From a virus (Duplodnaviria > Caudoviricetes): 64,000 bases of DNA. A program made the translations under genes and the position numbers. The notes under the pieces were generated by a model that saw only the letters and a program-made list of their open reading frames with translations, had not been told where the DNA came from and did not search any database. Where the stretch lies: the IMG/VR virus record IMGVR_UViG_3300025141_000018, one strand, 5' to 3'. Within the stretch, counting starts at the first letter, position 1, and the number at the start of each line of letters is the position of its first letter. This document shows positions 574-63,056 of this stretch, one piece after another.

Positions 574-927
574 ATGGATGAAAGATTACAAAAAGCATTA
601 GACTTCACAAACTACAGATTAGTGCTAGAAAATCAAAAAAATAACCTTAAACTTGCTTCAGATCAAAATCTCCATGTCATACATTCAGGACAAAAAATTA
701 AAATAACGCACTCACTTATTAGTTTTCTTGGTACATTAAAACAAGAAAAACAAAAGGAAACTACACTTATTGATGCCTATGATAATCCTGTAAAAATTGA
801 CAATATAGATGAGTTATTAAAATCATGTATTGAAAAATATAACTCAACAATGAATGACTGGAATATACAATTTAGTAAGATTAAAAAAGCAAGAAATATG
901 GAAAAATTATTAGATGCCTCAAAATAA
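574..927 (+). CDS. Hypothetical protein (conserved-looking phage protein preceding a GT pair)
   Basis: 117 aa ORF with SD; overlaps next gene; no catalytic motif recognised. Confidence 0.7.
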   Translation: MDERLQKALDFTNYRLVLENQKNNLKLASDQNLHVIHSGQKIKITHSLISFLGTLKQEKQKETTLIDAYDNPVKIDNIDELLKSCIEKYNSTMNDWNIQFSKIKKARNMEKLLDASK

Positions 928-1822
928 TGGATTATGTGCCTTTGCATATAATAATGATGAAATCAACTATGTTGAAATGGCATATATTTGTGCATTACAC
1001 GCAAAAGCATATTTAAAAAATAATAACTTTTGTTTAATTACTGACGAGGGTTCCCTCTCGTATATGAAACAATTATACAAGCCTAAAATATTAGAAAAAG
1101 TTATCGACGTTGTAATGGTAACAGAAAATCCCCTTGAAGATATGGGGGAAAATAAAAATATACGGAATCATTTTGATAGTCCGTGGACTGAATTTAGAGC
1201 CCCATTTATTAATAGCAATAAACACGAAGTGTATCAAATTACTCCGTATGATAAAACTATTTTAATAGATTTAGATTACCTTGTGATGTCAAACATGTTA
1301 GATAGTTATTTTGAAATGAATTCGCCAATAGGTATGTTTGTTAATGCAAAAAACATTCGTGGAAATAACCCATTATGGAAAGAAATATGGTTACATAATG
1401 CAGGTATAAAAATGAAATGGTCGACTGTTATTGCATTTGATAAAAGTGACGAGGCAAAAATATTTTTTGATATGTGGGAATATGTTAAGGATAATTATAA
1501 TTACTTTAAATTTTTATATAACTTTCCACAAGGACTATACAGGACTGATTATTGTGTAAGTATTGCTTCGCATATTATGTCTGATTCAAAAGAATCAGAC
1601 TGGTATAATTTTAACGAAAGAATGTACTTTAGTGATCAGAAAGATGAGATATATGATTTTAATGACGGGATATATAGCATTATGGCTAATGATCAAAAAG
1701 AAAACTGGAAAGACATTCCAGTGACATGGAGAGATGTAGATATTCATATGATGAATAAACGATCAATTAGTAGAATAGCACCTAAGGTAATAGAATATTA
1801 TGAAAAAGAGCTCAACTTATAA
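914..1822 (+). CDS. GT-A fold glycosyltransferase-like protein (GT8/nucleotide-diphospho-sugar transferase-like)
   Basis: DxD-type motif TPYDKTILIDLDYLV, FCLITD, late D motif YRTDYCVSIA. Confidence 0.6.
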   Translation: MPQNNGLCAFAYNNDEINYVEMAYICALHAKAYLKNNNFCLITDEGSLSYMKQLYKPKILEKVIDVVMVTENPLEDMGENKNIRNHFDSPWTEFRAPFINSNKHEVYQITPYDKTILIDLDYLVMSNMLDSYFEMNSPIGMFVNAKNIRGNNPLWKEIWLHNAGIKMKWSTVIAFDKSDEAKIFFDMWEYVKDNYNYFKFLYNFPQGLYRTDYCVSIASHIMSDSKESDWYNFNERMYFSDQKDEIYDFNDGIYSIMANDQKENWKDIPVTWRDVDIHMMNKRSISRIAPKVIEYYEKELNL

Positions 1823-2663
1823 AAAATGGAAGATAACGCCAATAGAAGCAGACTTTGGTATTACATTGTTATTAGATAAAAATAGTGATCCAGTACAAAA
1901 AGACTGTTTGTTTGTATGTGTTAAAAGTATTAAAAAATCATATCCTGATGTTCCTATTGCAGTAATAACAGATCAAAAGTTAAACATGAAAGAAATTGAT
2001 TATCTTATTCCGCAGGAAATTGCTATTGATAGTTATTGGACTGATAAGAAAATTAATCTTTGCACTTTGTATTGGCTAACCCCATTTAAAGTTACGTTAT
2101 TTCTTGATAATGATTTTATAATAACCGACAATCAAAATTTTAATCAGTACTATATTGAATTAATTAAAACAATAACTTTTCCGCAAACTGTTTTAAGTTT
2201 TAGAGGATACAAGTTACCATATAATCATAGAGTACTAGAAGAAAACAATATTCAAACTATTCTTCCTCATACTTTTGCATTTAAAAGAGATGACGAAACT
2301 ACGTTAGAGTTTTTTAATTTATGGTATCAAGTTTGTCAATATTGGCAATCATTTTTTCCATATGTTAACAAGACTATTAAATTTAAAAACTTTGATTCAA
2401 CAATAGCATTATCATTGACTGCTCATATATTGGGCATAACTAAAGAAATTAAAAGTAATGTATACACATATGTACATATGAATCCGTTCTTAGAAAGAAC
2501 ATTTCCTGGAATTAGAAATCCAGCATGGTCATCCTTCTTAAAAATATGGCCTTCTGACGATGGAATAGCAATAGAAAATTATAAAGTAAATAAGTTACTA
2601 CATTACAAAGATAAAAAAGTTATCTCAATATATAAGAAGCAATTACATGAGTGGTTACGTTGA
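1800..2663 (+). CDS. GT-A fold glycosyltransferase-like protein, paralog of 914..1822
   Basis: IAVITD, LYWLTPFKVTLFLDNDF, FDSTIALSLTAHILG parallel the upstream gene. Confidence 0.6.
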   Translation: MKKSSTYKKWKITPIEADFGITLLLDKNSDPVQKDCLFVCVKSIKKSYPDVPIAVITDQKLNMKEIDYLIPQEIAIDSYWTDKKINLCTLYWLTPFKVTLFLDNDFIITDNQNFNQYYIELIKTITFPQTVLSFRGYKLPYNHRVLEENNIQTILPHTFAFKRDDETTLEFFNLWYQVCQYWQSFFPYVNKTIKFKNFDSTIALSLTAHILGITKEIKSNVYTYVHMNPFLERTFPGIRNPAWSSFLKIWPSDDGIAIENYKVNKLLHYKDKKVISIYKKQLHEWLR

Positions 2664-3642
2664 AACAGTTGACAGGAATCATAAATTGTGGGTTTATAGT
2701 AACAAATATACTGGTGCGGTTTTAGAGTTTAGACATAGACCAAGCGAAACGTATGATACAGAAAATATACGTGAAACATTGCACCAAACAGAAGACGTTA
2801 AAGGATACTTAGAAGAAGATGTTAATTATAATAAACTTCAAGTACACTATAATCCCGACATTCGTGATTACGATATAAAACTTAAAGATAATAAAATTAA
2901 CATTCGTGTTGATGAACAATCCTTATTTCAAGTTCCTGAATTTGAGTGGGATAATACGTATGGCGACATTAATGTAATCATTGATAAAGATAATGATGTT
3001 TTATATTTCAAAGTAGGACAACAAATATATGACGAATTACTAAACTTAGAATTAAGTAATCAAGTTAATATTACAACTAATCAAAACGTTTTAGAATTTT
3101 GGATTACAAAGAAGAACCAGCCACACATTTTGTTAGATACTTTAAAATTAAACACAAAACAATTTTTAGCAGATGGACAATATACATTTGATATTTCTGA
3201 TATTAAAACTCACGTAAATTATAATGAACTAAGTATTTTTACACAACGTCTTTTCTCAGATTATAAGATGTTTTATAAAAACCAATTTTCAGCAATACTT
3301 GAAAACCAAGAAAAATTTCATACAATTCAAGTAGCAATGCATGAAAAATATTCAGACTTAGCAATTTGGCAAGAACAAGTAGAACTAGATTATAAAACTA
3401 ACACATATTCAAAACGTTATGCTTGTATGTCGTCTATTAAAAACTTTGCAAAGTACGATATTTTAGATGACTATATACAATTATATTGTGTAAACAAAAA
3501 CAATACAAACGATTTAATCGACGTTATACGAATACCTATATTAGAAATAAAAAACGAACGAGTATATAACTTTTGGATTAATACAAATGAAGAAGTAAAC
3601 TTTCTTCATAATCACCAAAAAATCTTAATGGGCATACAATGA
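2647..3642 (+). CDS. Hypothetical protein with an internally duplicated beta-rich segment
   Basis: FWITKKNQPHILLDTLKL resembles LYCVNKNNTNDLIDVIRI; coupled to both neighbours. Confidence 0.6.
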   Translation: MSGYVETVDRNHKLWVYSNKYTGAVLEFRHRPSETYDTENIRETLHQTEDVKGYLEEDVNYNKLQVHYNPDIRDYDIKLKDNKINIRVDEQSLFQVPEFEWDNTYGDINVIIDKDNDVLYFKVGQQIYDELLNLELSNQVNITTNQNVLEFWITKKNQPHILLDTLKLNTKQFLADGQYTFDISDIKTHVNYNELSIFTQRLFSDYKMFYKNQFSAILENQEKFHTIQVAMHEKYSDLAIWQEQVELDYKTNTYSKRYACMSSIKNFAKYDILDDYIQLYCVNKNNTNDLIDVIRIPILEIKNERVYNFWINTNEEVNFLHNHQKILMGIQ

Positions 3643-4610
3643 GAATACCAATTACAGAATACGATGTTGTATTCATTAGTTATGATGAGCCTAATGCTGA
3701 TGATAATTATGCAGATTTACTTAATAAAATTCCATGGGCTAAACGTTCGCACGGAATATGGGGAAGCGATGCCGCACATAAGGCGGCCGCGGAAATAGCC
3801 GAAACTGATAGATTTATTGGTATTGATGCTGATAATATTATTGATCCTGAATTTTTAAATATCGAATTAGATGATACAAAAATTGATATGTCTGTTGATG
3901 TTATTAGCTGGAGTGCTAAAAATCAAGTAAACGGTTTAGTATATGGCAATGGAGGAATTAAATGTTGGCCTAAAGCCGTAGTTGAAAACATGATGACACA
4001 TGAGAATTCCAATTCTAAAGAAGGACAAGTAGACTTTTGTTGGGACATACATTATGTGCAAATGAATAATATTTATAGTACAATTTTTAATAATGCAACT
4101 CCATATCAAGCATATAGAGCAGGCTTTCGCGAAGGTTGTAAGATGAGTTTAGATATGGGAGATGTTGTACCTGCAGACCAATTTAAAGCACGAGTACACT
4201 ATAAAAATTATAAACGATTATTAGTATGGATGTCTGTTGGTGCAGATACATTAAATGGTTGGTGGTGTATGTATGGTGCTCGCTTAGGATGTTGGATGAC
4301 AAACTTTGAACGAGATAATTGGAATTGGGTTGATGTACGTGATTTTGAATGGCATACACGTTACTGGAAAGAGAATATTGCTCCACAATTTGAAAGTGAA
4401 GTAAATGCTGGGGTAACCTGTACTTATACAGGTTGGACATATGACTTTGATAAATTAATATCTGAGACATGTAGAATAGGCGAAGATTTAAGATCAGAAT
4501 TAAACTTAGAAATTGCCGATCTTGATGATTTAGGTAGTAAATTCTTTAAAGAAACTTACACAAATCCGCCACGAACCGCTCCATTAATTAGAGAGGATCA
4601 AATAATATGA
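3639..4610 (+). CDS. GT2-like (GT-A) glycosyltransferase
   Basis: DVVFISYDEPNAD, HKAAA, FIGIDADNII (DxD), YGNGGIKCW, AYRAGFREGCK; paralog of 28380..29096. Confidence 0.65.
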   Translation: MRIPITEYDVVFISYDEPNADDNYADLLNKIPWAKRSHGIWGSDAAHKAAAEIAETDRFIGIDADNIIDPEFLNIELDDTKIDMSVDVISWSAKNQVNGLVYGNGGIKCWPKAVVENMMTHENSNSKEGQVDFCWDIHYVQMNNIYSTIFNNATPYQAYRAGFREGCKMSLDMGDVVPADQFKARVHYKNYKRLLVWMSVGADTLNGWWCMYGARLGCWMTNFERDNWNWVDVRDFEWHTRYWKENIAPQFESEVNAGVTCTYTGWTYDFDKLISETCRIGEDLRSELNLEIADLDDLGSKFFKETYTNPPRTAPLIREDQII

Positions 4611-4663
4611 GTATATTAAATGAAAATTGGGAAATATGAGTATATTAAATGAAAATTGGGAAA
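4604..4663 (+). repeat. 29-bp tandem duplication spanning a stop/start junction
   Basis: aatatgagtatattaaatgaaaattgggaaa occurs at 4604-4634 and 4633-4663 (period 29). Confidence 0.95.
4607..4639 (+). other. 10-codon mini-ORF MSILNENWEI* created by the duplication
   Basis: ATG 4607 overlaps upstream TGA 4608-4610; its own TGA 4637-4639 overlaps ATG 4636. Confidence 0.5.
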
Positions 4664-6144
4664 AAAGAGGTAATTATATAGTTCATTCGTCGCATAATTT
4701 TGAATTAATGAAAAACAAACAAGACGAAATAGGTCCTGGGTTTTGTATAGCAAAGTGGAATCAAGTTTCGTTACATTTAGAAACAGGATTAACACATAGT
4801 TGTCATCATCCAACAGCTCATGAAATACCGTTAGCAGAATTAGAAAAAAATCCTTCTGCATTACACAATACAGAGTTTAAAAAACAACAAAGAAAACTCA
4901 TGCTTGAAGGTAATAGGCCTAAAGAATGCGATTATTGTTGGCGTATTGAAGATCAAAATCAGTATAGCGATCGGCAAATGAAAACTATCGAGCCTTGGGC
5001 ATTAAAAGATTTTGATGAAATAAGTTTAATGACCGGTGATGAAAATGTTCCTCCAAAATATTTAGAAGTTAGTTTTACTAATGCATGTAATCAAAAATGT
5101 ATATATTGTGGGCCTGAATTTAGTACGGCTTGGATAGAAGAATTGAAGGAACACGGACCAGTAGTAGTTCTAAAAGAATATAATAACTATAAACGTATAG
5201 AGCAAGGATGGCAAAATTTAGATGATCTTTATTATAAAAAAAATCAAACCAATCCTTATATAGATGCATTTTGGAAATGGTTTCCAGAAATTTATGATAA
5301 ATTAGAAATATACAGAATAACAGGAGGCGAACCTTTATTAAGCAAAGATACTTTTAAAAGTATGGAGTTTTTTTTAAAAAATCCCAATCCTAATTTAGCA
5401 TTAGCAATTAATAGTAACCTTAGTGTACCTGAAAAAGTATGGTCAAAATTTATAAATTTATGTAAAAATCTCATTACTTCAAAAGCAATAAGTAAATTAA
5501 CAATATTTACAAGTATAGAAAGTTGGGGCGAACAAGCAAATTATGCTAGATATGGTTTAGATTTTGATGTTTATAGACAACGTATAGAAGAAATTGCAAA
5601 TATAAATGATTTAAGATGTGTTTTTATGTCTACTTATAATATTTTGAGTGTACCTTCTTTTTATAAAATATTAGAATGGCAATTAGAGCTAAAGAAAAAA
5701 TACAATACAATAAATTTAGATAAAGAAAAACCATCACATTCTTGGTTGATGGGTATAGATATTCCGTACCTTAGACATCCTCAATATTTAGATGTAGGTA
5801 TTCTCACAGATGATATAAAAGAAAAATATATGTTACCTTGTTTAGATTTCATGAAAAACAATATTTCGTCAGACCATACTGGATTTGAAGAATACGAAAT
5901 GATTAAGTTTCAACGTATTATCGAATCATTTGATGTTCCTAAAAACAATAAAACAAAATTAAGTATACGTAGAGCAAAATTTTATGATGTAATAAATGAA
6001 ATGGACAAAAGACGAGGTACAAATTTTTTAAAGACTTTTCCTGAATTAAAAGAATTTTATTTTGAATGTGAAAAAAATAGGAATATGATAAAATATGCAG
6101 TAAATGTAGTAGTTGATAGAGAAGCATATGAGTACGGTCCATAA
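4636..6144 (+). CDS. Radical SAM protein with N-terminal twitch-like domain
   Basis: CNQKCIYC motif, ITGGEP, N-terminal FC..KW...SCHH...CDYC; start placed at the second duplicated ATG. Confidence 0.9.
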   Translation: MSILNENWEKRGNYIVHSSHNFELMKNKQDEIGPGFCIAKWNQVSLHLETGLTHSCHHPTAHEIPLAELEKNPSALHNTEFKKQQRKLMLEGNRPKECDYCWRIEDQNQYSDRQMKTIEPWALKDFDEISLMTGDENVPPKYLEVSFTNACNQKCIYCGPEFSTAWIEELKEHGPVVVLKEYNNYKRIEQGWQNLDDLYYKKNQTNPYIDAFWKWFPEIYDKLEIYRITGGEPLLSKDTFKSMEFFLKNPNPNLALAINSNLSVPEKVWSKFINLCKNLITSKAISKLTIFTSIESWGEQANYARYGLDFDVYRQRIEEIANINDLRCVFMSTYNILSVPSFYKILEWQLELKKKYNTINLDKEKPSHSWLMGIDIPYLRHPQYLDVGILTDDIKEKYMLPCLDFMKNNISSDHTGFEEYEMIKFQRIIESFDVPKNNKTKLSIRRAKFYDVINEMDKRRGTNFLKTFPELKEFYFECEKNRNMIKYAVNVVVDREAYEYGP

Positions 6145-7603
6145 AGCATTTTTAGAGCCTACTGTTAACTATATTAAACGAGTTCTCAATTCAAAAAGTA
6201 AATCATTTTGCGGAGCAAAATGGTATAATGCAACTATATGGTTAGGACAAGGAGTTAATTCTAGTTGTCATCATCCGCCTCCGCATCCTATAGACCAAAA
6301 TGAGATTAAAACTAATTATAAAGCAATTCATAATACAAAATATAAAAAATTAGTTCGTAAACAAATGTTAGAAGGAATCCGGCCTTCTGAATGCGAATAT
6401 TGTTGGAAAATAGAAGATAATAATATTAATAATATAAGTGATAGATTTCATAAAAGTGTAGTATATACAGAAAAAGAATTGCGAGATATTACTAAATTCA
6501 AATGGAATGAAGATGTAGATTTATTAACATTGGAAATTGCATTTGATAATAATTGTAATTTTGCATGTAGTTATTGTAATCCTACGTGCTCCGCTACATG
6601 GAGTAAAGATATAAGAACACATGGTGCATATAATAGTTTACAAGGAGCAGATGATGTCGGTTTAACATTTGCTCAAACCGGAGAATGGGCGTTACCATAT
6701 GGATCAAAAAATGAGAATAATCCTTATGTAGAAGCATTTTGGAAATGGTGGGGTGCCGATTTATGTATTACATTAAAAGAATTGCGGGTAACTGGTGGTG
6801 AACCAACTGTTAGTAATAATTTTTGGAAATTACTAGATTGGTGGAAAGAGCATAAAGAATGCCAAGTAATATTAGCAATTAATTCTAATTTGGGTTTTAA
6901 ATTTGAAATATGCGATAAATTAGTTAAAGCTAGCCATTATATAAACACATGTCATATTTACACAAGTAACGAAAGTTATGGCAAACATGCAGAATATATT
7001 AGAGATGGATTAGTTTGGGACCAATGGACTGATAATTTAAATATTATAGCAAAACATAGTAGAATAAAATTAATACATATAATGTTTACGGTTAATGCAT
7101 TGTGTTTAGCAAGCATTACAAAATTAATAGAATATATTTTTACTTTTCAAGAAACATATAAAGATATTAAAATAGATATGAGTTTTAATATCTTGCGGTG
7201 GCCTAGTTTTCAAAGTATTACAACATTACCTAAATATTTGGTTGAACAAAAAATTAAAGAATTGGAAGAATTTATAGAACATAATAGTCAGCCACCATAT
7301 TTTAAGGAAGGTTTAAAAAGTCATCAAGTAGATAGATTAATTACTTTAATAAATTATTTAAAAAACGAAGTTGAAGGATTTGATGGTGCAACCGATTTAA
7401 CCAAAAGACAACAAAATTTTAAAGCATTTTATACTCAATACGATCAACGCAGAAATAAATCTTTTATTGATACATTTGCTGATTGGCCGGAATTAGTTGA
7501 ATGGTATAATTCTTTAGATTATAAATTTGTACCTCAAGAACGAACTAGCGGTGTTCAACCTAAAAATGATCATTATAAAAGAGTGTTAGATGATAAAATA
7601 TGA
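6128..7603 (+). CDS. Radical SAM protein with N-terminal twitch-like domain, tandem paralog of 4636..6144
   Basis: CNFACSYC, VTGGEP, FCGAKW...SCHH...CEYC, shared NPY.EAFWKW. Confidence 0.9.
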   Translation: MSTVHKAFLEPTVNYIKRVLNSKSKSFCGAKWYNATIWLGQGVNSSCHHPPPHPIDQNEIKTNYKAIHNTKYKKLVRKQMLEGIRPSECEYCWKIEDNNINNISDRFHKSVVYTEKELRDITKFKWNEDVDLLTLEIAFDNNCNFACSYCNPTCSATWSKDIRTHGAYNSLQGADDVGLTFAQTGEWALPYGSKNENNPYVEAFWKWWGADLCITLKELRVTGGEPTVSNNFWKLLDWWKEHKECQVILAINSNLGFKFEICDKLVKASHYINTCHIYTSNESYGKHAEYIRDGLVWDQWTDNLNIIAKHSRIKLIHIMFTVNALCLASITKLIEYIFTFQETYKDIKIDMSFNILRWPSFQSITTLPKYLVEQKIKELEEFIEHNSQPPYFKEGLKSHQVDRLITLINYLKNEVEGFDGATDLTKRQQNFKAFYTQYDQRRNKSFIDTFADWPELVEWYNSLDYKFVPQERTSGVQPKNDHYKRVLDDKI

Positions 7604-56410: not shown

Positions 56411-56411
56411 C

Positions 56412-57332: not shown

Positions 57333-58492
57333 GTTTAAATAAAAGTAGTTACGATTTCACTAAAATCCCTTTTGATGATTTAGTTAGAGTCGGCCAACGT
57401 AATATGTTATATAGAGACCTATTTACAGTCTCTTGGTTGCTCGGCAGATTTTGTAACTATCAATGTTCATATTGTTGGACCCATGGAAGGAGTAACAAAC
57501 ATGATCATAGACCAACCGATATGTGTCTACGAGCCATTGACCGGATCAAAGAACAAGCACGAGAGCGTGACTTTAATAGTTTTCATTTTAGCCTCTCTGG
57601 GGGTGAGCCTACATTGCATCCTGGTTACCTCGATATATTACAGCACCTTAATGATGATGTAAGTAACACAAACTATACCAGTGTACATATGACTTCAAAT
57701 TGTTCACCGGGTATGAAGTGGTTTGGAGAATATGTTAAAGCAGTAAAAGATTTTCACAGAGCAAGTATTACATGCAGTTATCATCGAGAGTACATTAAAA
57801 ATCCTAAAAAGCAACAACAGTTAGCAGATAAGTTAGTGCTTTGTCAAGAACATGATGTACAAGTTACAATTAATTGTGTTATGGTTCCTGAGTGGTTTTG
57901 GTTAATAATGGACGAAGTAAACCTGTTTCATGAACGTGGCATTAATGTAACATTAAAACCACAAAGTGATCCTAATGCTAATTTTATCGTATCAGGATAC
58001 GATGATGAAATGCTTGAAATGTTGCATAATGGTATGCCTCAACGAGGGTTTACTGAAGCAAAAAACAAGCATGTCAAGCGACCCGAACCAACATTTGTCA
58101 AACGTCCCGACCCAATTTACTGGGAAGAAAATAATAATGTACCGCAACATTTTCAAGTAGAATTTAGAGATAAAGATAAAAAATATTGGTTTATGGATCA
58201 AGCCGAACGATTTAATGCCTTTGAATTTAATAAGTTTAAAGGGTGGGAATGTAGTAGTGGATATAGAGGTATTATAATACGTGAACCCGATGGTAGCATA
58301 AAACGTTCGTATAGTTGTGACGACGAAGCACTAGGATACATATATGACGATTTTAAGTTATTTGATGGACCAAAAGTTTGTATCAGTAAAACATGTGTAA
58401 GTTCAGCAGATAGTAAAATACCTAAACGTAAACCAGGAACTCAATTACCTTTGTGGCCAGGAGATAAAACATATGAGCTTCAATCTGTTTAA
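57329..58492 (+). CDS. Radical SAM protein (third subtype, C-terminal Cys cluster)
   Basis: VSWLLGRFCNYQCSYC, SGGEP, C-terminal WEC...C...C..SAD. Confidence 0.9.
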   Translation: MSLNKSSYDFTKIPFDDLVRVGQRNMLYRDLFTVSWLLGRFCNYQCSYCWTHGRSNKHDHRPTDMCLRAIDRIKEQARERDFNSFHFSLSGGEPTLHPGYLDILQHLNDDVSNTNYTSVHMTSNCSPGMKWFGEYVKAVKDFHRASITCSYHREYIKNPKKQQQLADKLVLCQEHDVQVTINCVMVPEWFWLIMDEVNLFHERGINVTLKPQSDPNANFIVSGYDDEMLEMLHNGMPQRGFTEAKNKHVKRPEPTFVKRPDPIYWEENNNVPQHFQVEFRDKDKKYWFMDQAERFNAFEFNKFKGWECSSGYRGIIIREPDGSIKRSYSCDDEALGYIYDDFKLFDGPKVCISKTCVSSADSKIPKRKPGTQLPLWPGDKTYELQSV

Positions 58493-59099
58493 TACTTTAA
58501 CGGCATACGGAGATCAATACGCCTTACGGTTACGTGTAGAATTAGATAAAGTATTATCGGAACTAGGTAATTTTGATAATAGTTGGACACCATATAATCC
58601 ACGAAAGAAAAATAATAGGTGGGGTTTAAGTATAACAAATTTAGATGGAAAACTTGGTGCAGGTCCTGATTTAGATAGTATACGAGAATATAATAAAGAA
58701 AATAATACAAATATAACCGAATTTAGTTTTACTGTACCTACACCAGTGTATGAGATTTTTAAAGATGTATGTGATCCAATTAAGCAATGGCTTATAAGAT
58801 GTCATGTATTACAATTAAGACCGGGCGGATACTTTCCAGCACATGTTGATAATTGTGGTACTAACATTGATTCATTTAGATTGATTATACCTTTAGAAAA
58901 TATGAATCCGGATCATAGTTGGTTTATGCTTGAAGATAAAATTGTACGATGGGAACACGGAGACGTATATTTTTTAAATACTTGCAAGCAACATACTTTA
59001 TTTAATGCTGGATTTAAAAATATGACAATGGTTGTTTTAAATGTAGTATTAGAAAAAGAAGTAGTAGATTATATATTAAGTTCAAAGGTTATGTATTAA
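58473..59099 (+). CDS. Asp/Asn beta-hydroxylase-like Fe(II)/2OG oxygenase
   Basis: RCH.L.L.PGGYFPAHVD, RLIIP, QHTLFN. Confidence 0.72.
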   Translation: MSFNLFNTLTAYGDQYALRLRVELDKVLSELGNFDNSWTPYNPRKKNNRWGLSITNLDGKLGAGPDLDSIREYNKENNTNITEFSFTVPTPVYEIFKDVCDPIKQWLIRCHVLQLRPGGYFPAHVDNCGTNIDSFRLIIPLENMNPDHSWFMLEDKIVRWEHGDVYFLNTCKQHTLFNAGFKNMTMVVLNVVLEKEVVDYILSSKVMY

Positions 59100-59641
59100 T
59101 GTATTGGGAAGAATTACCATATAAAATAGATGTAGATAAAATACAAGAAGCATGGGATGCAGTACGGTTAAAATCAGCTCTAGAAAAAACACGAAGAGGG
59201 TTAAATAATAGTACAGAAGGCATAATCCAATGGACGGATACTGCTCCAACTTTGCAAACTGCATTACAATATAGTCAATATTCGGAAAACAAATACATAG
59301 ATCCTTGTCGCCTAGCAATTAGAGACGTAGACTTCAAGGACATATTAGATTGTTATAAAGACACATATTTTGAAGAACTAATACAGGAATTTAAATTAGT
59401 AAGAACTAGATTATGTTTATTACAACCAAAATCAACATATAGTATTCATACCGACCCTACGTGGAGAATACAAATTCCTGTGCTAACAAATAAAGATAAT
59501 TACTTTATTTGGTTTGGCGATAACGTTGAGCTGAAGCATTTAGAAGTGGGCAAAGCATACAAAGTTAATACACCGATTAATCATACCTTTGCAAATTTCT
59601 CTAACAAAGAAAGAATACATTTATTAGGAATACCAACATGA
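59099..59641 (+). CDS. Asp/Asn beta-hydroxylase-like Fe(II)/2OG oxygenase
   Basis: RTRL..L.PK..YSIHTD...RIQIP..TN, NHTFAN.S..ERIHL. Confidence 0.75.
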   Translation: MYWEELPYKIDVDKIQEAWDAVRLKSALEKTRRGLNNSTEGIIQWTDTAPTLQTALQYSQYSENKYIDPCRLAIRDVDFKDILDCYKDTYFEELIQEFKLVRTRLCLLQPKSTYSIHTDPTWRIQIPVLTNKDNYFIWFGDNVELKHLEVGKAYKVNTPINHTFANFSNKERIHLLGIPT

Positions 59642-60435
59642 AACAACCAGCCGAACCTGGCGTACTTTGTACTGCTGGGCAATTTATCTTACAACAAACA
59701 AATGAAAAAGATACGTTAAATATGCCACCAGAATTTGAACCAGCGGTAAAAGCAATACGTATTGCAACATGTGAAGCAGTATCTAAAAGAATTAGACGAT
59801 GCCAACGTAACTGGGATCATTCAAAAACAGTACCGGACAAAGATGTAAAAATTTTAGCAGAGGTAGCAAAACATGCACCTAGCAAACAAGACGAAGGTTA
59901 TTACGATATTGCAATTATACAATCAAGAGAAATAATTGAACAAATTTATCCACACACAGATGGATTTACTGTTCACAATCCTGAAACAGGAAAATGGGAC
60001 ATAACACTTCTTAATGCACAAGCAAATGCCAATGTATTGTTTATTTGGCATCCTAAAGAACCTAACGCAAAGAGCAATAGAAATTTTTGGAACAAAACAA
60101 CAGGGCTAATACGGGACGAATATGAAGCAGAACGATTAGGGCAAACAAAACCAAATAATTCATTTAGTAGAGTTGTAGAAAATGCATATTGTGCTATGGG
60201 TTGCAGTATAACCGCAACTGCATGGACAGCCGCCGAAATGGGTTATGTAACTGGTATTAATAAAAATTTAAATATGGATGAAATTTCGGAAATTACCGGA
60301 ATGCCATTTCCGAGATTTAGTTTAGGAATAGGATTTCCTAAGTTGTCTGAGGATAAGTGGTATATATCAAACGAGGGTGATGAATATACTCAGCATTCAT
60401 TAAAAGAAAAAGAAGTAACAATAAAATATTTTTAA
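59638..60435 (+). CDS. Nitroreductase-family flavoprotein
   Basis: RRCQRNWD...V, APSKQ, AAEMGY.TG, LGIGFP. Confidence 0.7.
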   Translation: MKQPAEPGVLCTAGQFILQQTNEKDTLNMPPEFEPAVKAIRIATCEAVSKRIRRCQRNWDHSKTVPDKDVKILAEVAKHAPSKQDEGYYDIAIIQSREIIEQIYPHTDGFTVHNPETGKWDITLLNAQANANVLFIWHPKEPNAKSNRNFWNKTTGLIRDEYEAERLGQTKPNNSFSRVVENAYCAMGCSITATAWTAAEMGYVTGINKNLNMDEISEITGMPFPRFSLGIGFPKLSEDKWYISNEGDEYTQHSLKEKEVTIKYF

Positions 60436-60443
60436 AGGAAAAA

Positions 60444-61034
60444 GTGGTGAAATATACAAAACATACATTTCCTTGGGATCATTGGACAACAACGGAGACA
60501 CTACCCGAGGACATTGCCAGATGTTCATTTAACGCATGTACATCAAACAGAGCAACTCCGTATTCGTATGGAAAAAGGGCAAATTTTTTATACGAAAAAC
60601 GAAAATGGATTGGAAGTGCAGTATGGCAAAAACGACTCAATAAGGAATATCTTAATCCTGTTTTAACGCCATTCTTAAAGACTGAATGTAAGGATTATAT
60701 TACATTAGAAGAAACAGATAATTGGCGGGCAGAATGGATCTCAGATCCGCCCGGTTTTCATTTAGACCCACATAATGATATACCTGAGAAAAAAATGACA
60801 ATGATGGTATATTTAGGACGAAATGAAAATCAAGGAACATCATTATATGATGGCAAAGGGAAAATTAAAAATGTACCAAGTGGATATAATCAGGGTATGA
60901 TATTTTTCCCTGCAAAAAATACATCACATGGTTATCCACCAGCTCGGGCAGTTGATAATTATAGATACGCTCTCATAATTAATATTGTAGATAAAACATT
61001 TAAAGAAAAACCATACTGGCCCATAACACTTTAA
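60444..61034 (+). CDS. Fe(II)/2OG-dependent oxygenase
   Basis: FPWDHW, PHNDIPEK.MTM.VYL, GTSLY, SHGY, RY.LI; GTG start after aagga. Confidence 0.75.
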   Translation: MVKYTKHTFPWDHWTTTETLPEDIARCSFNACTSNRATPYSYGKRANFLYEKRKWIGSAVWQKRLNKEYLNPVLTPFLKTECKDYITLEETDNWRAEWISDPPGFHLDPHNDIPEKKMTMMVYLGRNENQGTSLYDGKGKIKNVPSGYNQGMIFFPAKNTSHGYPPARAVDNYRYALIINIVDKTFKEKPYWPITL

Positions 61035-62305
61035 TGGAATTTATAGATACTAAAGCACGTATTTTTAAAGTTACTAAAACCAAACATGATGTATTATTTT
61101 GGTATAATACGGATTCGTTTAACAATGAAACATGGACTCCAGATAATAAAATTATACTAGACCTATTAACCGCATGTAGAGAAAAGAAGCCTCTACGATT
61201 TCAAGGTAATTGGGCATATGTCTATATTTGTAAAGATTATTGGTTAGCCGCGGTTGACCATTATGCCAGCATAAATTTGTTTTTTAACAAAAAAATCATA
61301 ACACATAATTGGGAAATTATTAAACAAAAACCCAACGACTCCATTGGAATAGAACAACAATTTATATTACGCAGAATGCTTGTTGGATCTCGCACAACTG
61401 TTAAAAATGTTAAAAAAATACCTCCTGGATGCTATGCAATAAATGGCGAGATACACGAATATGCTAATTTTAGAGAACTAGAATTTCCTAATTCGTTACA
61501 GGTTGTTAAGAGTTTTGACAATCTCACTAATCATGTAAACGGACTCGTTTTATATAGTGGTGGTACTGATAGTTATATGTTAGCATGTCAAGGACAGGAT
61601 AAACATCGTTATGCCACAATAACAAGTCCAGATATAAAATATAACTTTCAAATTTCTAAACCGGGAATTGTAACAAAAGAAATAGAAGTAACTATGGAAT
61701 CTAGTTGGAGTGATGGATTGTTTACTGAACCAACTATGAATTACAAAATTCAAGCATTAAACGAACTCGGAGAAAATTATGTTGGGCAACATGTAATAAC
61801 AGGTGAAACAGGTAATGCTCCACTAATGGCTACCCATTTAGTTCATGCATATGTTAATGATCCTAGTATAAGTTTACAACGATATGCTGATAGTATAATA
61901 CGTTTATTACGGCACGATACACATTCGTGGGGTGTTGGAGAACCGGATGATAATTTAGAAAATGATTATCGTGATGGTTACAAAGAAATTAGCGATCATT
62001 TTATAAACAAGTTAAGAGATACACGTTACGATATGTTACGAAACTTAGTTACTATCTATGGAGAAGAACATACTAATTATAGATTATATCCTTATAGTCA
62101 AAATTTAAAATGGAATTGGTATCATCCGTTTTCAACCGCATTATGGGCATCATGCTATTTTCAAAATGAGATTGTTGCTAATCCAAAAAAGCATTTATTT
62201 TATATTGTTGCTACACGAAAAAAGTTTCCAATGCAACCATGGACAGTACCTAAAGTAGGAATGAGTATTCCAACAAAAGAAAAATATGTACGAACTAAGA
62301 CTTAA
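61034..62305 (+). CDS. Asparagine-synthetase-like ATP-dependent amide ligase lacking the Ntn Cys
   Basis: VKKIPPG, LYSGGTDS PP-loop, ITGE.G, HPF; no Cys at the N-terminus. Confidence 0.65.
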   Translation: MEFIDTKARIFKVTKTKHDVLFWYNTDSFNNETWTPDNKIILDLLTACREKKPLRFQGNWAYVYICKDYWLAAVDHYASINLFFNKKIITHNWEIIKQKPNDSIGIEQQFILRRMLVGSRTTVKNVKKIPPGCYAINGEIHEYANFRELEFPNSLQVVKSFDNLTNHVNGLVLYSGGTDSYMLACQGQDKHRYATITSPDIKYNFQISKPGIVTKEIEVTMESSWSDGLFTEPTMNYKIQALNELGENYVGQHVITGETGNAPLMATHLVHAYVNDPSISLQRYADSIIRLLRHDTHSWGVGEPDDNLENDYRDGYKEISDHFINKLRDTRYDMLRNLVTIYGEEHTNYRLYPYSQNLKWNWYHPFSTALWASCYFQNEIVANPKKHLFYIVATRKKFPMQPWTVPKVGMSIPTKEKYVRTKT

Positions 62306-63056
62306 AAATTTTATAATTTTTAGAAATGCTAAACTATACGATGAAATAGTTCCACAGATGCAAGAGCATTATTGTGATTTTCATGCATTTAGTTTAGATT
62401 TAAAACGACCGCTCGATGACAAATTACGTGAACATATGTGGACATTTCTAAATATAAAAGAAGATGTTAATATGATATTAGTTGGGTTACCCGATCTTGG
62501 TTTGCTAGCAAAAAGAAAAATTAGTTTTGATTGGTTACTGTTTAATGATTTAGTTAAGCCAGATAGAATAGCACACGAACAACAATTTGCAAAATTAGAT
62601 ATTGACATTCCTAAGTTTTCAACATTATGTGCCTGGTGGTTTAATTATGACAAATTTAAAACACTACGATATAAAAGTTTTGAAGCAGATAATGCCATGA
62701 CATTTCTTAACGAAACCGATGATCCGTATTTTAATGAAATAAGTTATAAAGCAAGAGTATTATTTGATTCTAAATTGCAAGATGTAAGTTATACATTTGA
62801 ACCAGTTTGTAGCAATAGACGAGTATTATCTAGTTACAATGAAAAGTATCCAATGATTGCTTGTAGAGCAGAAACAATGAGAGCTATTTCTGCAAAAAAA
62901 CGTATAGGGTATTGTGCCGGTTATATAAAGAATGATCTATTATATATTCATCATTGTAATGTTGTAAAAAGATATAGAGGATTAGGAATTGAAAAAGCAA
63001 TGGAACGTATAATATTTGATTATGCCGAAGGCGAAGGTGCTAAAACTATTCTATAG
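62286..63056 (+). CDS. Hypothetical protein with a C-terminal GNAT acetyltransferase-like motif
   Basis: YIHHCNV..RYRGLGI...M (motif A R/QxxGxG). Confidence 0.55.
   Translation: MYELRLKNFIIFRNAKLYDEIVPQMQEHYCDFHAFSLDLKRPLDDKLREHMWTFLNIKEDVNMILVGLPDLGLLAKRKISFDWLLFNDLVKPDRIAHEQQFAKLDIDIPKFSTLCAWWFNYDKFKTLRYKSFEADNAMTFLNETDDPYFNEISYKARVLFDSKLQDVSYTFEPVCSNRRVLSSYNEKYPMIACRAETMRAISAKKRIGYCAGYIKNDLLYIHHCNVVKRYRGLGIEKAMERIIFDYAEGEGAKTIL

What the first reader, a model, noticed from the sequence alone, without database searches (positions are those of the whole stretch)
574..63056. ~62 kb phage tailoring-enzyme super-cluster: candidate virion protein/glycan hypermodification pathway
Seen: about 65 co-directional, mostly overlapping genes, nearly all group-transfer or redox enzymes (13 radical SAM, about 11 Fe/2OG-type oxygenases, 8 GT-like, 4-6 sulfotransferase-like, 5 SGNH-like, plus methyl-, carbamoyl-, amidino-, amino- and acetyl-transferases, a UDP-sugar dehydrogenase, NadE and an AsnB-like ligase). 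They start directly after a structural gene and a TATAAATA box, with no replication or lysis genes interspersed. Established: T4-type late promoters drive virion genes, and giant viruses hydroxylate and glycosylate their own fibres. Inference: the locus builds an elaborate surface coat on virion fibres (host recognition, camouflage or stability) rather than serving as scattered auxiliary metabolism. I know of no characterised pathway of this complexity in a phage.
Basis: partly seen in the sequence, partly recalled or inferred. Interest (0 to 1): 0.9.

Follow-up and report, generated by a model that had tools for sequence, protein, structure and literature searches.

The report
Jumbo-phage sugar-tailoring enzyme island
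An uncultured marine jumbo phage carries, right after its baseplate and fibre genes, a 62-kb block of about 65 soluble enzymes, including 13 radical-SAM enzymes, that probably builds a heavily decorated sugar coat; its gene cassettes recur in other marine phages and in predatory Bdellovibrio-like bacteria, and no product is known.

Summary
Window 574-63056 has 65 plus-strand, mostly overlapping ORFs and 2 embedded minus-strand ORFs, with no tRNA, replication or lysis gene. All 13 radical SAM genes are confirmed. Other class counts are only partly reproduced: 7 2OG/cupin oxygenases, 4 GT-B glycosyltransferases, 1 sulfotransferase, and about 30 ORFs with no Pfam hit.

The setting is a phage. gp25-like, gp6-like (41% identical to PA5oct) and a 3592-aa virion-type protein lie directly upstream. 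A T4-type DNA polymerase lies downstream in a collinear IMG/VR relative.

Ten radical SAMs belong to NCBIfam NF033640 (N-terminal twitch), a family of unknown function. ORF 44449 is a StrB1-type amidinotransferase (E 6e-41). None of the 65 ORFs has a credible membrane segment.

Specific window genes have strong orthologues, in conserved cassettes, next to NF033640 genes in Bdellovibrionota chromosomes and in other marine phages.

Best reading (about 0.4): a modular, hypervariable cytoplasmic island that tailors amino/guanidino sugars and decorates a soluble acceptor, most likely virion fibres. The target is inferred, not shown.

Similar islands are published but uncharacterised (pelagimyophage "host recognition cluster", cyanophage S-SCSM2R, Campylobacter phage CP220). 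This scan has already noted such arrays in at least 8 other phage genomes.

The parts
1..564 (+). C-terminal half of a 357-aa protein, the last gene of the baseplate/fibre block. It holds a (Gly-Tyr-Ser)x11 tract at 241-348.
   Evidence: Translation of L032:18963-20036 and tandem repeat rows. The homologue in the divergent relative L013 has (GYG)x9. The gene before it shares 54% identity over 104 residues with a PA5oct virion structural / tail-pin protein.
531..538 (+). TATAAATA box 36 nt upstream of the first island gene. A second copy at 53678-53685 lies before ORF 53706.
   Evidence: 9 sites in the window against 27 +/- 4.7 expected. The depletion is consistent with a signal avoided elsewhere. 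Promoter function was not tested.
574..4610 (+). Five ORFs of unknown family (117, 302, 287, 331 and 323 aa). The last (3639-4610) carries the unassigned ~230-aa 'FISY..E / VDGDN' domain, also found in 28380-29096.
   Evidence: No Pfam or PHROG family. The order 117aa-914-...-3639-N_Twi rSAM is conserved in L013, L014 and L098. The domain family has 1,680 clusters at 50% identity and no PDB match.
4627..8747 (+). Three radical SAM genes: two N-terminal-twitch type (4627, 6113) and one with a conventional layout (7590).
   Evidence: Pfam; NF033640 at 315.7 bits for 4627; CxxxCxxC motifs.
8740..22037 (+). Glycosyl/group-transfer segment. It holds four paralogous GT-B fold transferases (8740, 10845, 15058, 20550), a sulfotransferase-like ORF (12833), DUF6071-type ORFs (17703, 19763), two isochorismatase-like ORFs (10364, 17150; motif only) and an NDP-sugar dehydrogenase (18526).
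   Evidence: Paralogy. AF2 model pLDDT 74, pTM 0.81. Foldseek top PDB hits are fucosyltransferases, OtsA and BshA at E about 2e-3; AFDB GT1 at E 8e-11 and FucT at 1.5e-5. Pfam/NCBIfam.
22037..27432 (+). Rare-sugar activation module: NadE, Rpe/AlsE-like epimerase, SnoaL-like protein, NTP-transferase plus kinase-like fusion, HxlB-like SIS isomerase, small HAD phosphatase, NodU/CmcH-type carbamoyltransferase.
   Evidence: Pfam; NCBIfam. NadE scores above cut-off. Rpe, SIS and NDP-sugar dehydrogenase score below equivalog cut-offs.
27559..42197 (+). Radical SAM cassette B region. It holds a methyltransferase-like domain by motif (27559 and the C-terminus of 31419), the 'VDGDN' domain (28380), N_Twi rSAMs (29083, 35986, 37713, 39764, 40887), a type-B rSAM (34358), an SDR-like ORF (37148) and small 2OG oxygenases (33236, 33829).
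   Evidence: Orthologues lie in the same neighbourhoods in Bdellovibrionota (37713 at E 1e-190, 34358 at 1e-115, 37148 at 8e-46).
30297..31433 (-). Embedded minus-strand ORF (378 aa), family unknown.
   Evidence: no Pfam; conserved in G001 at 74%.
42180..43007 (-). Embedded minus-strand ORF (275 aa), family unknown. Another first-stage note calls it KdoO-like; this was not tested.
   Evidence: no Pfam; conserved in G001 at 84%.
44449..50597 (+). Cassette A, with oxidise-transaminate-amidinate logic: amidinotransferase (44449), 234-aa unknown (45473), N_Twi rSAM (46167), PLP-enzyme-like ORF (47378), N_Twi rSAMs (48289, 49395).
   Evidence: 44449 profile against PDB: StrB1 1BWD at E 6.4e-41, plus SxtG, HsvA and AGAT, with the catalytic GG(I)HC kept. 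Atlas labels it amidinotransferase. 47378 hits Pfam Aminotran_1_2 at E 1.4e-3 and has D-x-A-W and S-L-T-K motifs. The block 44449-47378-49395-48289 is conserved in L038, L042, L046 and L053 and in IMG/VR L016.
50581..63056 (+). Distal segment: viral-only 497-aa and 621-aa proteins, Asp/Asn-hydroxylase-type cupins (52062, 58473, 59099), a type-C rSAM (57329), a nitroreductase-like ORF (59638), a 2OG oxygenase (60444), a 423-aa unknown and a GNAT-like ORF (62286).
   Evidence: 57329 has orthologues at E 1e-168 in Bdellovibrionota. A single 808-aa Bdellovibrionota protein matches both 50581 and 52062.
63046..64000 (-). Start of the convergent downstream block (233 aa and a partial 226 aa). It is followed off-window by TctA, OpuAC/ABC permease, TauD x3, AMP-binding, nitroreductase, FA desaturase, ThyX and DUF2201 genes.

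Best explanation
The window is the hypervariable tailoring island of an uncultured marine jumbo myovirus whose baseplate resembles PA5oct/Rak2-type phages. The island follows the baseplate and fibre genes directly.

It encodes only soluble enzymes, arranged as exchangeable cassettes:
1. Supply of unusual activated sugars: NDP-sugar dehydrogenase, Rpe/HxlB-type isomerases, kinase-nucleotidyltransferase, phosphatase.
2. Transfer: four GT-B glycosyltransferases.
3. Decoration: carbamoyl-, sulfo-, acetyl- and probably methyl-transfer, and hydroxylation by 2OG/cupin oxygenases.
4. Two recurring radical-SAM cassettes. Here the N-terminal-twitch enzymes (NF033640) most likely perform oxygen-independent C-H activation on sugar carbons (dehydrogenation or epimerisation, BtrN/DesII/BlsE-like). 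The resulting ketone would then be aminated by the PLP enzyme and converted to a guanidino group by the StrB1-type amidinotransferase.

The product would be a heavily tailored, charged glycan made in the cytoplasm and placed on a soluble acceptor. The most likely acceptor is the phage's own fibre or baseplate proteins, with the adjacent Gly-Tyr-Ser repeat protein as one candidate. Such a coat could change adsorption, stability or recognition of the virion.

Shown: phage context, enzyme families, cassette conservation, absence of membrane components, cassette-level variation.
Inferred: the chemistry of the radical SAM enzymes, the nature of the product, and the acceptor.
For: Phage context:
- gp25-like (phrog_43, E 8e-17) and gp6-like (phrog_10646, E 0; 41% identical to the PA5oct baseplate wedge) genes lie upstream.
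- The 3592-aa protein is related to the CBB virion structural protein (E 2.5e-57).
- The tail-pin-like neighbour is 54% identical to a PA5oct virion protein.
- DNA polymerase (phrog_262, E 9e-195) and an exonuclease lie downstream in collinear G001.

Enzyme content:
- 13 rSAM ORFs, all with CxxxCxxC. All four of the ten N-terminal-twitch paralogues that were scored reach 258-385 bits on NF033640, against a cut-off of 170.
- GT-B fold for the family of four.
- Amidinotransferase at E 6.4e-41 to StrB1 with the catalytic Cys kept.
- Carbamoyltransferase, NDP-sugar dehydrogenase, NadE and SIS/HAD/NTase.

Soluble pathway: none of the 65 ORFs has a credible transmembrane segment.

Coherent pathway: specific orthologues (E 1e-66 to 1e-190) of 37713, 57329, 34358, 4627, 44449, 49395, 47378 and 25939 lie in conserved blocks in Bdellovibrionota chromosomes and in other phage contigs.

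Sugar link for NF033640 in cells: GT2-rich locus in Bdellovibrio sp. HCB2-146; deoxysugar genes (FdtA, hexose dehydratase, EryCIII-like GT) in Poseidonocella.

Coupling to structural genes: the order p208-p358-p357-117aa-914-3639-rSAM is kept at 30-60% identity in L013, L014 and L098. A rSAM array also lies beside an Mtd_N/PTL_trimer fibre gene in a TARA contig.

Hypervariability:
- G001 lacks seven window ORFs while the rest are 65-99% identical.
- A contig identical to the window at both ends is 2,265 nt shorter inside.
- L009 and L010 are rearranged in ORF 53706.

Published precedent: pelagimyophage host recognition cluster (PMC7029224).
Against: - There is no direct evidence for any acceptor, product or expression time. 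No RNA run holds the sequence.
- Among 56 immediate neighbours of NF033640 genes in cellular loci, only 3 are recognisable glycosyltransferases and 11 are other rSAMs. The sugar link of the family is therefore not general.
- Structure comparison of the N_Twi model does not separate sugar, nucleotide and peptide enzymes: BlsE Z 12.6, anSME 12.5, SkfB 12.5, viperin and MoaA 11.6.
- Fibre genes with a Peptidase_S74-like end lie near only 5 of 80 cellular loci, so there is no enrichment.
- The giant upstream protein shows no collagen-like, EGF-like or Cys-rich acceptor pattern.
- About 30 ORFs remain without a family.
- TATAAATA is not enriched.
Confidence: 0.4

Rival explanations
1. Host-envelope remodelling. 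The island makes or alters nucleotide sugars and glycans that enter the host's own LPS or capsule pathway during infection. This changes the cell surface and blocks superinfection by competing phages, as proposed for the pelagimyophage host recognition cluster.
For: The published interpretation of analogous islands cites GT8, rfaE and UDP-glucose dehydrogenase genes (PMC7029224). The window has nucleotide-sugar and GT genes. Cassette-level variability resembles O-antigen loci.
Against: None of the 65 ORFs is a membrane protein. There is no initiating phosphoglycosyl transferase, flippase, polymerase, ligase or exporter. A lytic jumbo phage has little time for surface turnover. The cassettes also occur in predatory bacteria, where exclusion of phages from a host is not the obvious use.
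Confidence: 0.2
2. Diffusible small molecule. The cassettes build an aminoglycoside-, aminocyclitol- or nucleoside-antibiotic-like metabolite (amino, guanidino and carbamoyl sugar). The phage, and Bdellovibrio-like predators, would use it to shut down the host or prey, or competitors.
For: The island has a StrB1/SxtG-type amidinotransferase, a PLP enzyme, rSAMs whose nearest structures include BlsE, DesII and AprD4, a NodU/TobZ-type carbamoyltransferase, a SnoaL-like protein and a nitroreductase. An NF033640 member sits in a PKS/deoxysugar cluster in Poseidonocella. The authors of S-SCSM2R call the same trio 'antibiotic synthesis genes' (PMC12801897). Its occurrence in bacterial predators would also fit.
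Against: There is no scaffold-forming enzyme (no inosose or inositol-phosphate synthase, PKS or NRPS), no exporter and no self-resistance gene in 62 kb. Four GT-B paralogues and strain-level cassette swapping fit a polymer or serotype-like structure better than one optimised metabolite. The position after the fibre genes is conserved.
Confidence: 0.2
3. Direct protein chemistry. The rSAM and hydroxylase enzymes cross-link, epimerise or hydroxylate residues of virion proteins, in a RiPP-like way but on whole proteins. Glycosylation would be secondary.
For: SPASM/twitch rSAMs often act on peptides, and anSME, SkfB and CteB are among the top structural neighbours. Asp/Asn-hydroxylase and P4H-type oxygenases are typically protein hydroxylases. 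A Tyr/Ser repeat protein lies next door. Another first-stage note reports Cys-rich fibres upstream; this was not checked here.
Against: There is no precursor-peptide ORF or room for one. No RRE-like domain is evident in the N_Twi model. In cells the family pairs with amidinotransferase, PLP and carbamoyl enzymes, which act on small substrates. The giant fibre protein has no acceptor-like repeats.
Confidence: 0.1
4. DNA hypermodification. The sugars or amines are attached to phage DNA bases to evade restriction.
For: GT-B is the fold of the T4 DNA glucosyltransferases. PLP, rSAM, flavin and acetyl enzymes take part in known thymidine hypermodification (my knowledge of that literature; no paper was checked here). 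Campylobacter phages have an amidinotransferase beside rSAM genes, and from memory, not checked here, those phages have modified guanine. ThyX lies downstream.
Against: The window has no DpdA/TGT, base hydroxymethylase, 5-hmdU kinase or 7-deazaguanine gene. The cassettes are chromosomal and multi-copy in Bdellovibrionota. Their position among the fibre genes is conserved.
Confidence: 0.05
5. No common product: an accretion of unrelated auxiliary metabolic genes in a recombination hot spot.
For: GC varies from 25 to 34% along the island. Cassettes come and go between close relatives. Downstream lies a mixed bag of transporters and TauD genes.
Against: Multi-gene blocks are conserved with the same partners across phages and Bdellovibrionota. 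One Bdellovibrionota protein matches two adjacent window genes. Translational coupling runs through nearly all junctions.
Confidence: 0.05

Closest known systems
Host recognition cluster (HRC) of pelagimyophages and cyanomyophages (Zaragoza-Solas et al. 2020, PMC7029224)
   Same: It is a large hypervariable island inside the structural region next to tail-fibre genes. It holds glycosyltransferases, sugar-nucleotide genes (rfaE, UDP-glucose dehydrogenase) and radical SAM gene cassettes. It differs between close relatives by gain and loss of cassettes, and its function is uncharacterised.
   Different: The HRC sits in 150-kb T4-like phages between VrlC and gp14, with a mean size of 44.6 kb including the fibres. 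Here the carrier is a PA5oct/Rak2-like jumbo phage. The island is 62 kb of enzymes alone, lies after gp6 and a 3592-aa protein, and has 13 rSAMs plus amidino-, carbamoyl- and sulfo-transfer.
NCBIfam NF033640, N_Twi_rSAM (twitch domain-containing radical SAM protein)
   Same: Ten window paralogues have this layout. The four that were scored lie well above the cut-off. All have the N-terminal C...CC...CxxC cluster ahead of CxxxCxxC.
   Different: The family has no characterised member and no literature. Here it forms a ten-member array whose individual members each have orthologues in Bdellovibrionota.
Streptidine / aminocyclitol logic of aminoglycoside pathways (StrB1 amidinotransferase, PLP aminotransferase, BtrN-type twitch radical SAM dehydrogenase, TobZ carbamoyltransferase)
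   Same: The window has a StrB1-type amidinotransferase with the catalytic Cys (E 6e-41), an adjacent PLP-like enzyme, twitch rSAMs, a carbamoyltransferase, and a kinase and phosphatase nearby.
   Different: There is no cyclitol-forming enzyme, no resistance or export gene, the twitch domain is N-terminal, and the setting is a virion-gene context. The resemblance is in chemical logic. Membership of such a cluster is not met.
'Antibiotic synthesis genes' of Synechococcus phage S-SCSM2R (PMC12801897) and the amidinotransferase plus radical SAM genes of Campylobacter phages CP220/CPt10
   Same: Isolated T4-like phages carry an amidinotransferase next to rSAM and PLP genes.
   Different: They hold only 3-8 genes with 22-26% identity to ORF 44449, are not tied to GT-B arrays, and their function is untested.
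Virus-encoded virion glycosylation (mycobacteriophage capsid/tail O-glycans; Mimivirus fibril and chlorovirus capsid glycans)
   Same: A virus encodes its own sugar-activation and transferase genes that act in the cytoplasm on structural proteins without host membrane machinery (my knowledge of that literature; only the Freeman 2023 citation was seen).
   Different: Those systems have 2-12 genes and no radical SAM, amidino or sulfo chemistry. Here virion modification is inferred, not observed.

Membership tests
NCBIfam NF033640 N_Twi_rSAM | Whole-protein score above the curated cut-off (170 bits) | tested here: met
   46167 scores 258.4, 35986 scores 385.0, 29083 scores 320.5 and 4627 scores 315.7 bits. 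The other six were not scored. They are assigned by BLAST paralogy and by a shared alignment with invariant Cys.
NCBIfam NF033640 N_Twi_rSAM | Auxiliary-cluster (twitch/half-SPASM) Cys motif N-terminal to the CxxxCxxC radical SAM core | tested here: met
   PF13186 matches residues about 6-90, ahead of PF04055, in six ORFs. C6, C74 and C77 are invariant and C24/C25 nearly so. The AF2 model has pLDDT 92.
Amidinotransferase (StrB1/AGAT, pentein fold) | Full-length homology to solved amidinotransferases and the catalytic Cys in the C-terminal GGxHC motif | tested here: met
   The profile of 44449 and its orthologues matches 1BWD at E 6.4e-41, SxtG at 7.9e-37 and AGAT at 8e-33. G330, H333 and C334 are invariant and align to GGGFHC of StrB1.
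GT-B glycosyltransferase (GT10/GT1-like) | Two-Rossmann-domain GT-B fold | tested here: met
   The AF2 model has pTM 0.81. AFDB clusters give GT1 at E 7.7e-11 (TM 0.56/0.68) and fucosyltransferase at 1.5e-5. The top PDB hits are all GT-B but weak (E 2e-3, TM 0.3-0.39).
GT-B glycosyltransferase (GT10/GT1-like) | Membership of a curated sequence family (for example PF00852 Glyco_transf_10) | tested here: not met
   No Pfam GT family hits at E<0.01. PF00852 finds nothing in collinear G001, although that search also rang in no control genome. Homologues are all unannotated metagenomic proteins.
Pelagimyophage-type host recognition cluster | Hypervariable island adjacent to fibre genes with GT, sugar and rSAM cassettes | tested here: met
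   definition from PMC7029224.
Pelagimyophage-type host recognition cluster | Located between VrlC and gp14 of a T4-like (Tevenvirinae-type) genome | tested here: not met
   The flanks are gp25/gp6/3592-aa protein upstream and TctA/OpuAC/TauD genes downstream. The baseplate is closest to PA5oct. VrlC and gp14 were not searched for by name.
O-antigen / capsule biosynthesis locus | Initiating phosphoglycosyl transferase plus Wzx/Wzy or an ABC exporter (integral membrane proteins) | tested here: not met
   A hydropathy scan finds no multi-span protein; only two marginal single segments appear among the window's 69 ORFs, both in island ORFs. No such Pfam family hits.
RiPP biosynthetic cluster | Precursor peptide gene and a leader-recognition (RRE) element | tested here: not met
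   The genes tile with overlaps, and only two gaps (64 and 126 nt) are available. The N_Twi model shows twitch, barrel and helical-bundle parts only. The RRE was judged by eye, not by a dedicated search.
Aminoglycoside / aminocyclitol BGC | Cyclitol-forming enzyme (2-deoxy-scyllo-inosose synthase or inositol-phosphate synthase) and self-resistance or export genes | tested here: not met
   None is found by Pfam at E<0.01 in any ORF. About 30 ORFs are unassigned, so absence is not proven.
Phage DNA hypermodification module | Base-exchange or base-hydroxymethylating enzyme (DpdA/TGT, dCMP/dUMP hydroxymethylase, 5-hmdU kinase) | tested here: not met
   None is in the window. The rest of the genome is not held, so this could not be tested genome-wide.

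The most novel reading that the evidence does not exclude
Marine phages and predatory Bdellovibrio-like bacteria share an undescribed, modular, oxygen-independent radical-SAM pathway. The pathway installs amino, guanidino and other groups on sugars. It builds a new class of charged glycan on their attack organelles (phage fibres, predator surface). The NF033640 enzymes would be a new family of carbohydrate C-H-activating radical SAM enzymes, with ten distinct specificities in one phage.
Probability: 0.2. Interest if true: 0.85.

Novelty: new variant of a known kind. Interest (0 to 1): 0.62.

Why it matters
If the product is a virion coat, this would be by far the most elaborate self-modification system known in a bacteriophage. 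It would also explain why abundant marine phages keep large, fast-changing enzyme islands next to their fibre genes, which bears on host range, virion stability and phage-phage competition in the ocean.

Whatever the target, the island gives a genomic handle on NF033640. This is a large radical SAM family with no known function. The conserved partners found here (amidinotransferase, PLP enzyme, two further rSAM types, carbamoyltransferase) suggest concrete substrates to test.

Orthologous cassettes occur in cultured Bdellovibrio and in isolated phages (S-SCSM2R, CP220/CPt10, Vibrio K566), so the question can be addressed by experiment now.

Tried and rejected
Leads that failed or were rejected:
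- **Cellular origin (SAR11-type surface island).** I suspected this at first from the TctA/OpuAC/TauD flanks and 30% GC. It is rejected by the baseplate and virion genes upstream and the DNA polymerase downstream.
- **Near-DNA search of isolated phages.** No match.
- **Fibre adjacency of NF033640 arrays as a general rule in Bdellovibrionota.** Only 5 of 80 loci have a Peptidase_S74-like fibre end within 10 kb, against a rough background guess of about 10%. Rejected.
- **NF033640 always sits among glycosyltransferases.** Only 3 of 56 immediate neighbours are GTs. Rejected as a rule.
- **Acceptor motifs in the 3592-aa protein** (collagen-like GXY, EGF hydroxylation consensus, Cys-rich). None found.
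- **Structural neighbours of the N_Twi model as a guide to substrate.** Ties between sugar, nucleotide and peptide enzymes. Uninformative.
- **Profile searches of PDB** for the GT-B family, the 'VDGDN' domain (shallow and deep alignments), the MTase-like domain, the PLP-like family and the type-C rSAM. No informative hit.
- **PF00852 search in G001.** Nothing, and the controls were silent too.
- **ESM Atlas for 53706 and 50581.** Viral-only clusters; GT-A-like structure hits stay below TM 0.4.
- **All-against-all HHsearch with one-sequence profiles.** Added only a few weak links. Two earlier attempts timed out.
- **RNA evidence.** No RNA run holds the sequence.
- **TATAAATA enrichment.** The motif is depleted.
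- **Moraphage paper (PMC12619734).** A different lineage.

Full report
**What is in the window**

The 64-kb window has about 30% GC and no tRNA. ORFs of at least 80 aa tile it almost without gaps. Between 574 and 63056 there are 65 plus-strand ORFs. About 50 of their junctions overlap, and only two gaps exceed 25 nt. Two minus-strand ORFs (30297-31433, 42180-43007) are embedded with overlapping ends. A convergent block starts at 63046.

Pfam, NCBIfam and PHROG scans of all ORFs give these assignments:
- 13 radical SAM proteins, all with CxxxCxxC.
- Six weak-to-clear 2OG/Asp-Asn-hydroxylase hits, plus one more by paralogy.
- An NDP-sugar dehydrogenase.
- A bona fide NadE (172.7 bits against a cut-off of 63.65).
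- An Rpe/AlsE-like epimerase, a SnoaL-like protein, an NTP-transferase fused to a kinase-like domain, an HxlB-like SIS isomerase and a small HAD phosphatase.
- A NodU/CmcH carbamoyltransferase.
- One sulfotransferase at threshold, two DUF6071 proteins, a nitroreductase-like protein, a weak GNAT and a weak aminotransferase.

About 30 ORFs have no family. No replication, lysis or packaging gene is present.

**Phage or cell**

No whole genome is held for the window. I therefore walked public contigs that encode identical proteins.

A 137-kb ENA contig is 100% identical to the window over 1-7745 and 53046-64000. Directly upstream of the island it carries, in order:
- a gp25-like baseplate protein (phrog_43, E 8e-17);
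- a 1115-aa gp6-like wedge protein (phrog_10646, E 0), 41% identical to the Pseudomonas jumbo phage PA5oct baseplate wedge and 37% to Erwinia jumbo phages;
- a 3592-aa protein related to the virion structural protein of Pectobacterium jumbo phage CBB (E 2.5e-57);
- 208-, 358- and 357-aa proteins.

Residues 209-312 of the 358-aa protein are 54% identical to a PA5oct virion structural / tail-pin protein.

Downstream lie TctA, OpuAC, an ABC permease, three TauD genes, AMP-binding enzymes, another rSAM/SPASM gene, a fatty-acid desaturase, ThyX and DUF2201.

An IMG/VR contig (G001, 98.8 kb, CheckV 28% complete) is collinear with window 3100-64000 at 65-99% amino-acid identity. It continues into an HNH endonuclease, an ATPase, an exonuclease and a T4-type DNA polymerase (phrog_262, E 9e-195).

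My first guess, a SAR11-like cellular island, is therefore wrong. The locus lies in an uncultured jumbo myovirus with a PA5oct/Rak2-type baseplate. Near-identical DNA occurs in marine metagenomes of at least 15 studies.

**The enzymes that could be resolved further**

*Radical SAMs.* Ten radical SAMs are paralogues at 20-32% identity. Their auxiliary-cluster domain lies in front of the radical SAM core. The four tested score 258-385 bits on NCBIfam NF033640 (N_Twi_rSAM, cut-off 170). Full-text searches for the family found no paper on its function. An AlphaFold model (pLDDT 92) shows twitch, barrel and C-terminal helical parts. Its solved neighbours tie: BlsE Z 12.6, anSME 12.5, SkfB 12.5, viperin and MoaA 11.6, DesII 9.7, AprD4 8.2. 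Structure therefore does not tell the substrate class. Two further rSAM types are present: 7590 with 34358, and 57329.

*Glycosyltransferases.* A family of four (8740, 10845, 15058, 20550) has only unannotated metagenomic relatives. It folds as GT-B (pTM 0.81). Fucosyltransferases, OtsA and BshA are the top PDB hits but are weak. AFDB clusters give GT1 at E 8e-11 and fucosyltransferase at 1.5e-5.

*Amidinotransferase.* ORF 44449 is an amidinotransferase. Its profile hits StrB1 (1BWD) at E 6.4e-41, and also SxtG, HsvA and AGAT. The catalytic GGxHC motif is conserved.

*Other families.*
- ORF 47378 keeps D-x-A-W and S-L-T-K motifs typical of fold-type-I PLP enzymes. It has only a weak Pfam hit and no PDB hit.
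- The domain shared by 3639 and 28380 ('FISY..E ... VDGDN') has 1,680 clusters at 50% identity. It is often repeated within one protein and has no Pfam or PDB match.

*Membrane proteins.* No ORF of the island has a credible transmembrane segment.

**Relatives elsewhere**

*Other phage contigs.* NF033640 homologues number in the thousands in metagenomes. A 170-kb TARA contig has more than 12 rSAM genes in a row beside a desaturase and an Mtd_N/PTL_trimer fibre gene. A 343-kb contig has a similar array with nitroreductase, desaturase, two Asp/Arg hydroxylases and an aminotransferase.

*Cellular genomes.* In species-representative genomes, about 58 of the best 80 loci are Bdellovibrionota, including isolate and complete chromosomes. 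Each 20-kb locus holds 1-7 copies. Four of the loci look like phage contigs binned into MAGs.

*The main new result.* Particular window proteins have strong orthologues beside NF033640 genes in Bdellovibrionota loci:

| Window ORF | Best E-value or spread |
|---|---|
| 37713 | 1e-190 |
| 57329 | 1e-168 |
| 4627 | 1e-118 |
| 34358 | 1e-115 |
| 44449 | 1e-105 |
| 49395 | 1e-85 |
| 25939 | 1e-80 |
| 47378 | 1e-66 |
| 37148 | 8e-46 |
| 'VDGDN' domain (3639, 28380) | found in 16 loci |
| 27559 / 31419 C-terminal domain | found in 20 loci |

They lie in recurring blocks: [44449-47378-49395-48289-29083] and [31419C-28380-37713-34358-57329-7590-37148]. One 808-aa Bdellovibrionota protein matches both adjacent window genes 50581 and 52062. 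The island is thus assembled from conserved multi-gene cassettes, not from unrelated auxiliary genes.

**Links to structural genes and variability**

In three divergent relatives (L013, L014, L098; 30-60% identity) the order 208aa-358aa-357aa-117aa-914-...-3639-N_Twi rSAM is kept.

The 357-aa protein just before the island contains (Gly-Tyr-Ser)x11. Its L013 homologue has (Gly-Tyr-Gly)x9. The Gly-Tyr repeat is what is kept between the two.

The island varies by cassette:
- G001 lacks seven window ORFs.
- The otherwise identical 137-kb contig is 2,265 nt shorter inside.
- Two other contigs are rearranged within ORF 53706.

TATAAATA occurs 9 times against 27 +/- 4.7 expected. This depletion fits a signal that is avoided inside genes. 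The sites at 531 and 53678 sit just before genes that follow non-overlapping junctions. Promoter use is untested.

**Interpretation**

The content points to synthesis and heavy tailoring of sugars in the cytoplasm. The relevant parts are activated-sugar supply, four GT-B transferases, carbamoyl/sulfo/acetyl transfer, hydroxylases, and rSAM-PLP-amidinotransferase cassettes.

The cassette logic of oxidise, transaminate, amidinate mirrors streptidine formation. There a twitch rSAM (BtrN, in the related butirosin pathway) can replace an NAD-dependent dehydrogenase. This parallel rests on established knowledge of those pathways. It was reached here before I read the first-stage note that says the same.

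Three observations make the phage's own fibre or baseplate proteins the most likely acceptor:
- the absence of any membrane-bound glycan-assembly component;
- the conserved position after the fibre genes;
- serotype-like cassette turnover.

No tool result shows the acceptor, and I put this reading at about 0.4.

The rivals are:
- host envelope remodelling, as published for pelagimyophages (0.2);
- a diffusible aminoglycoside- or nucleoside-like metabolite, which would also suit predators (0.2);
- direct radical chemistry on virion proteins (0.1);
- DNA hypermodification (0.05);
- an unrelated gene collection (0.05).

Cellular neighbourhoods weaken any simple sugar rule for NF033640. Only 3 of 56 immediate neighbours are GTs. 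S74-type fibres are not enriched nearby.

**Comparison with what is known, and novelty**

- Pelagimyophage genomes have a hypervariable 'host recognition cluster' next to tail fibres, with GTs, rfaE, UDP-glucose dehydrogenase and radical SAM cassettes (PMC7029224).
- Cyanophage S-SCSM2R carries a PLP enzyme, a rSAM and an inosamine amidinotransferase. Its authors call them antibiotic synthesis genes (PMC12801897).
- Campylobacter phages CP220 and CPt10 have an amidinotransferase next to rSAM genes.
- KVP40-like and K566 Vibrio phages have distant NF033640-like genes.
- None of these has been characterised.
- This scan has already flagged such arrays in at least eight other phage genomes. One follow-up reached the same family assignment and the same Bdellovibrio link.

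The present locus is therefore a new, unusually large variant of a known but unexplained kind of island.
- the jumbo-phage (PA5oct-like) carrier;
- the cassette-level orthology with Bdellovibrionota;
- the firm amidinotransferase and GT-B assignments;
- the all-soluble character of the island;
- candidate isolates for experiments.

Noticed in passing
window 241-348 (protein L032:18963-20036): There is a (Gly-Tyr-Ser)x11 tract in the 357-aa protein just before the island. The homologue in a divergent relative (L013) has (Gly-Tyr-Gly)x9, so the Gly-Tyr repeat is kept. It is a possible acceptor or adhesive segment. The protein has no homologue in isolated phages.
   Followed up: partly
window, whole: TATAAATA is strongly depleted: 9 sites on both strands against 27 +/- 4.7 in dinucleotide shuffles. 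All 100 shuffles have at least 9. This suggests selection against spurious copies of a real signal.
   Followed up: partly
L007/L031 (137-kb contig, 0-20 kb past the window's 3' end): A jumbo phage carries a TctA-family transporter subunit, an OpuAC-type binding protein with an ABC permease, three TauD-family dioxygenases, AMP-binding enzymes, a fatty-acid desaturase and ThyX just after the island. Transporter genes of this kind strike me as unusual in a phage; I did not check how often they occur.
   Followed up: no
window 3639-4610 and 28380-29096: A domain of about 230 aa ('FISY..E ... VDGDN ... GGVK') has no Pfam or PDB match. It forms 1,680 clusters at 50% identity and is often repeated several times in one protein of up to 2,164 aa. 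It is a steady partner of NF033640 genes (16 loci).
   Followed up: partly
L046:7849-10272: One 808-aa Bdellovibrionota protein matches both adjacent window genes 50581-52074 and 52062-52829. This hints that the viral-only 497-aa protein works with the Asp/Asn-hydroxylase-type cupin.
   Followed up: no
L036, L037/L098, L111 (contigs JBDNIA010000282.1, NZGL01000008.1, NZHE01000012.1): Contigs filed in Crocinitomicaceae, 'Gammaproteobacteria MED685' and 'Rickettsiales MED657' MAGs carry the fibre genes and island cassettes at 50-66% identity to the window. They are probably phage contigs mis-binned into those MAGs.
   Followed up: partly
window 8000-16000: GC drops to 25-26% over the GT-B / sulfotransferase segment, against 30-34% elsewhere in the island. 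This may mark a more recently acquired cassette.
   Followed up: no
window 30297-31433 and 42180-43007: Two single minus-strand genes are inserted in the plus-strand array with overlapping ends. Both are conserved in G001 at 74% and 84%. Other first-stage notes call one an inverted cassette with 7-bp repeats and the other KdoO-like; neither was checked here.
   Followed up: no
window 10364-10861 and 17150-17698: Two small paralogues share an 'ELY(Y/F)CG..F..C' segment (HHsearch 67%). It resembles the catalytic-Cys strand of isochorismatase-type hydrolases. This rests on the motif only.
   Followed up: no
window 7745-53046 vs contig ERZ27245251:k141_182420: The 137-kb contig is identical to the window at both ends but 2,265 nt shorter between them. 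This is a cassette-size indel within one population. The exact site was not located because the middle of that contig was not fetched.
   Followed up: no
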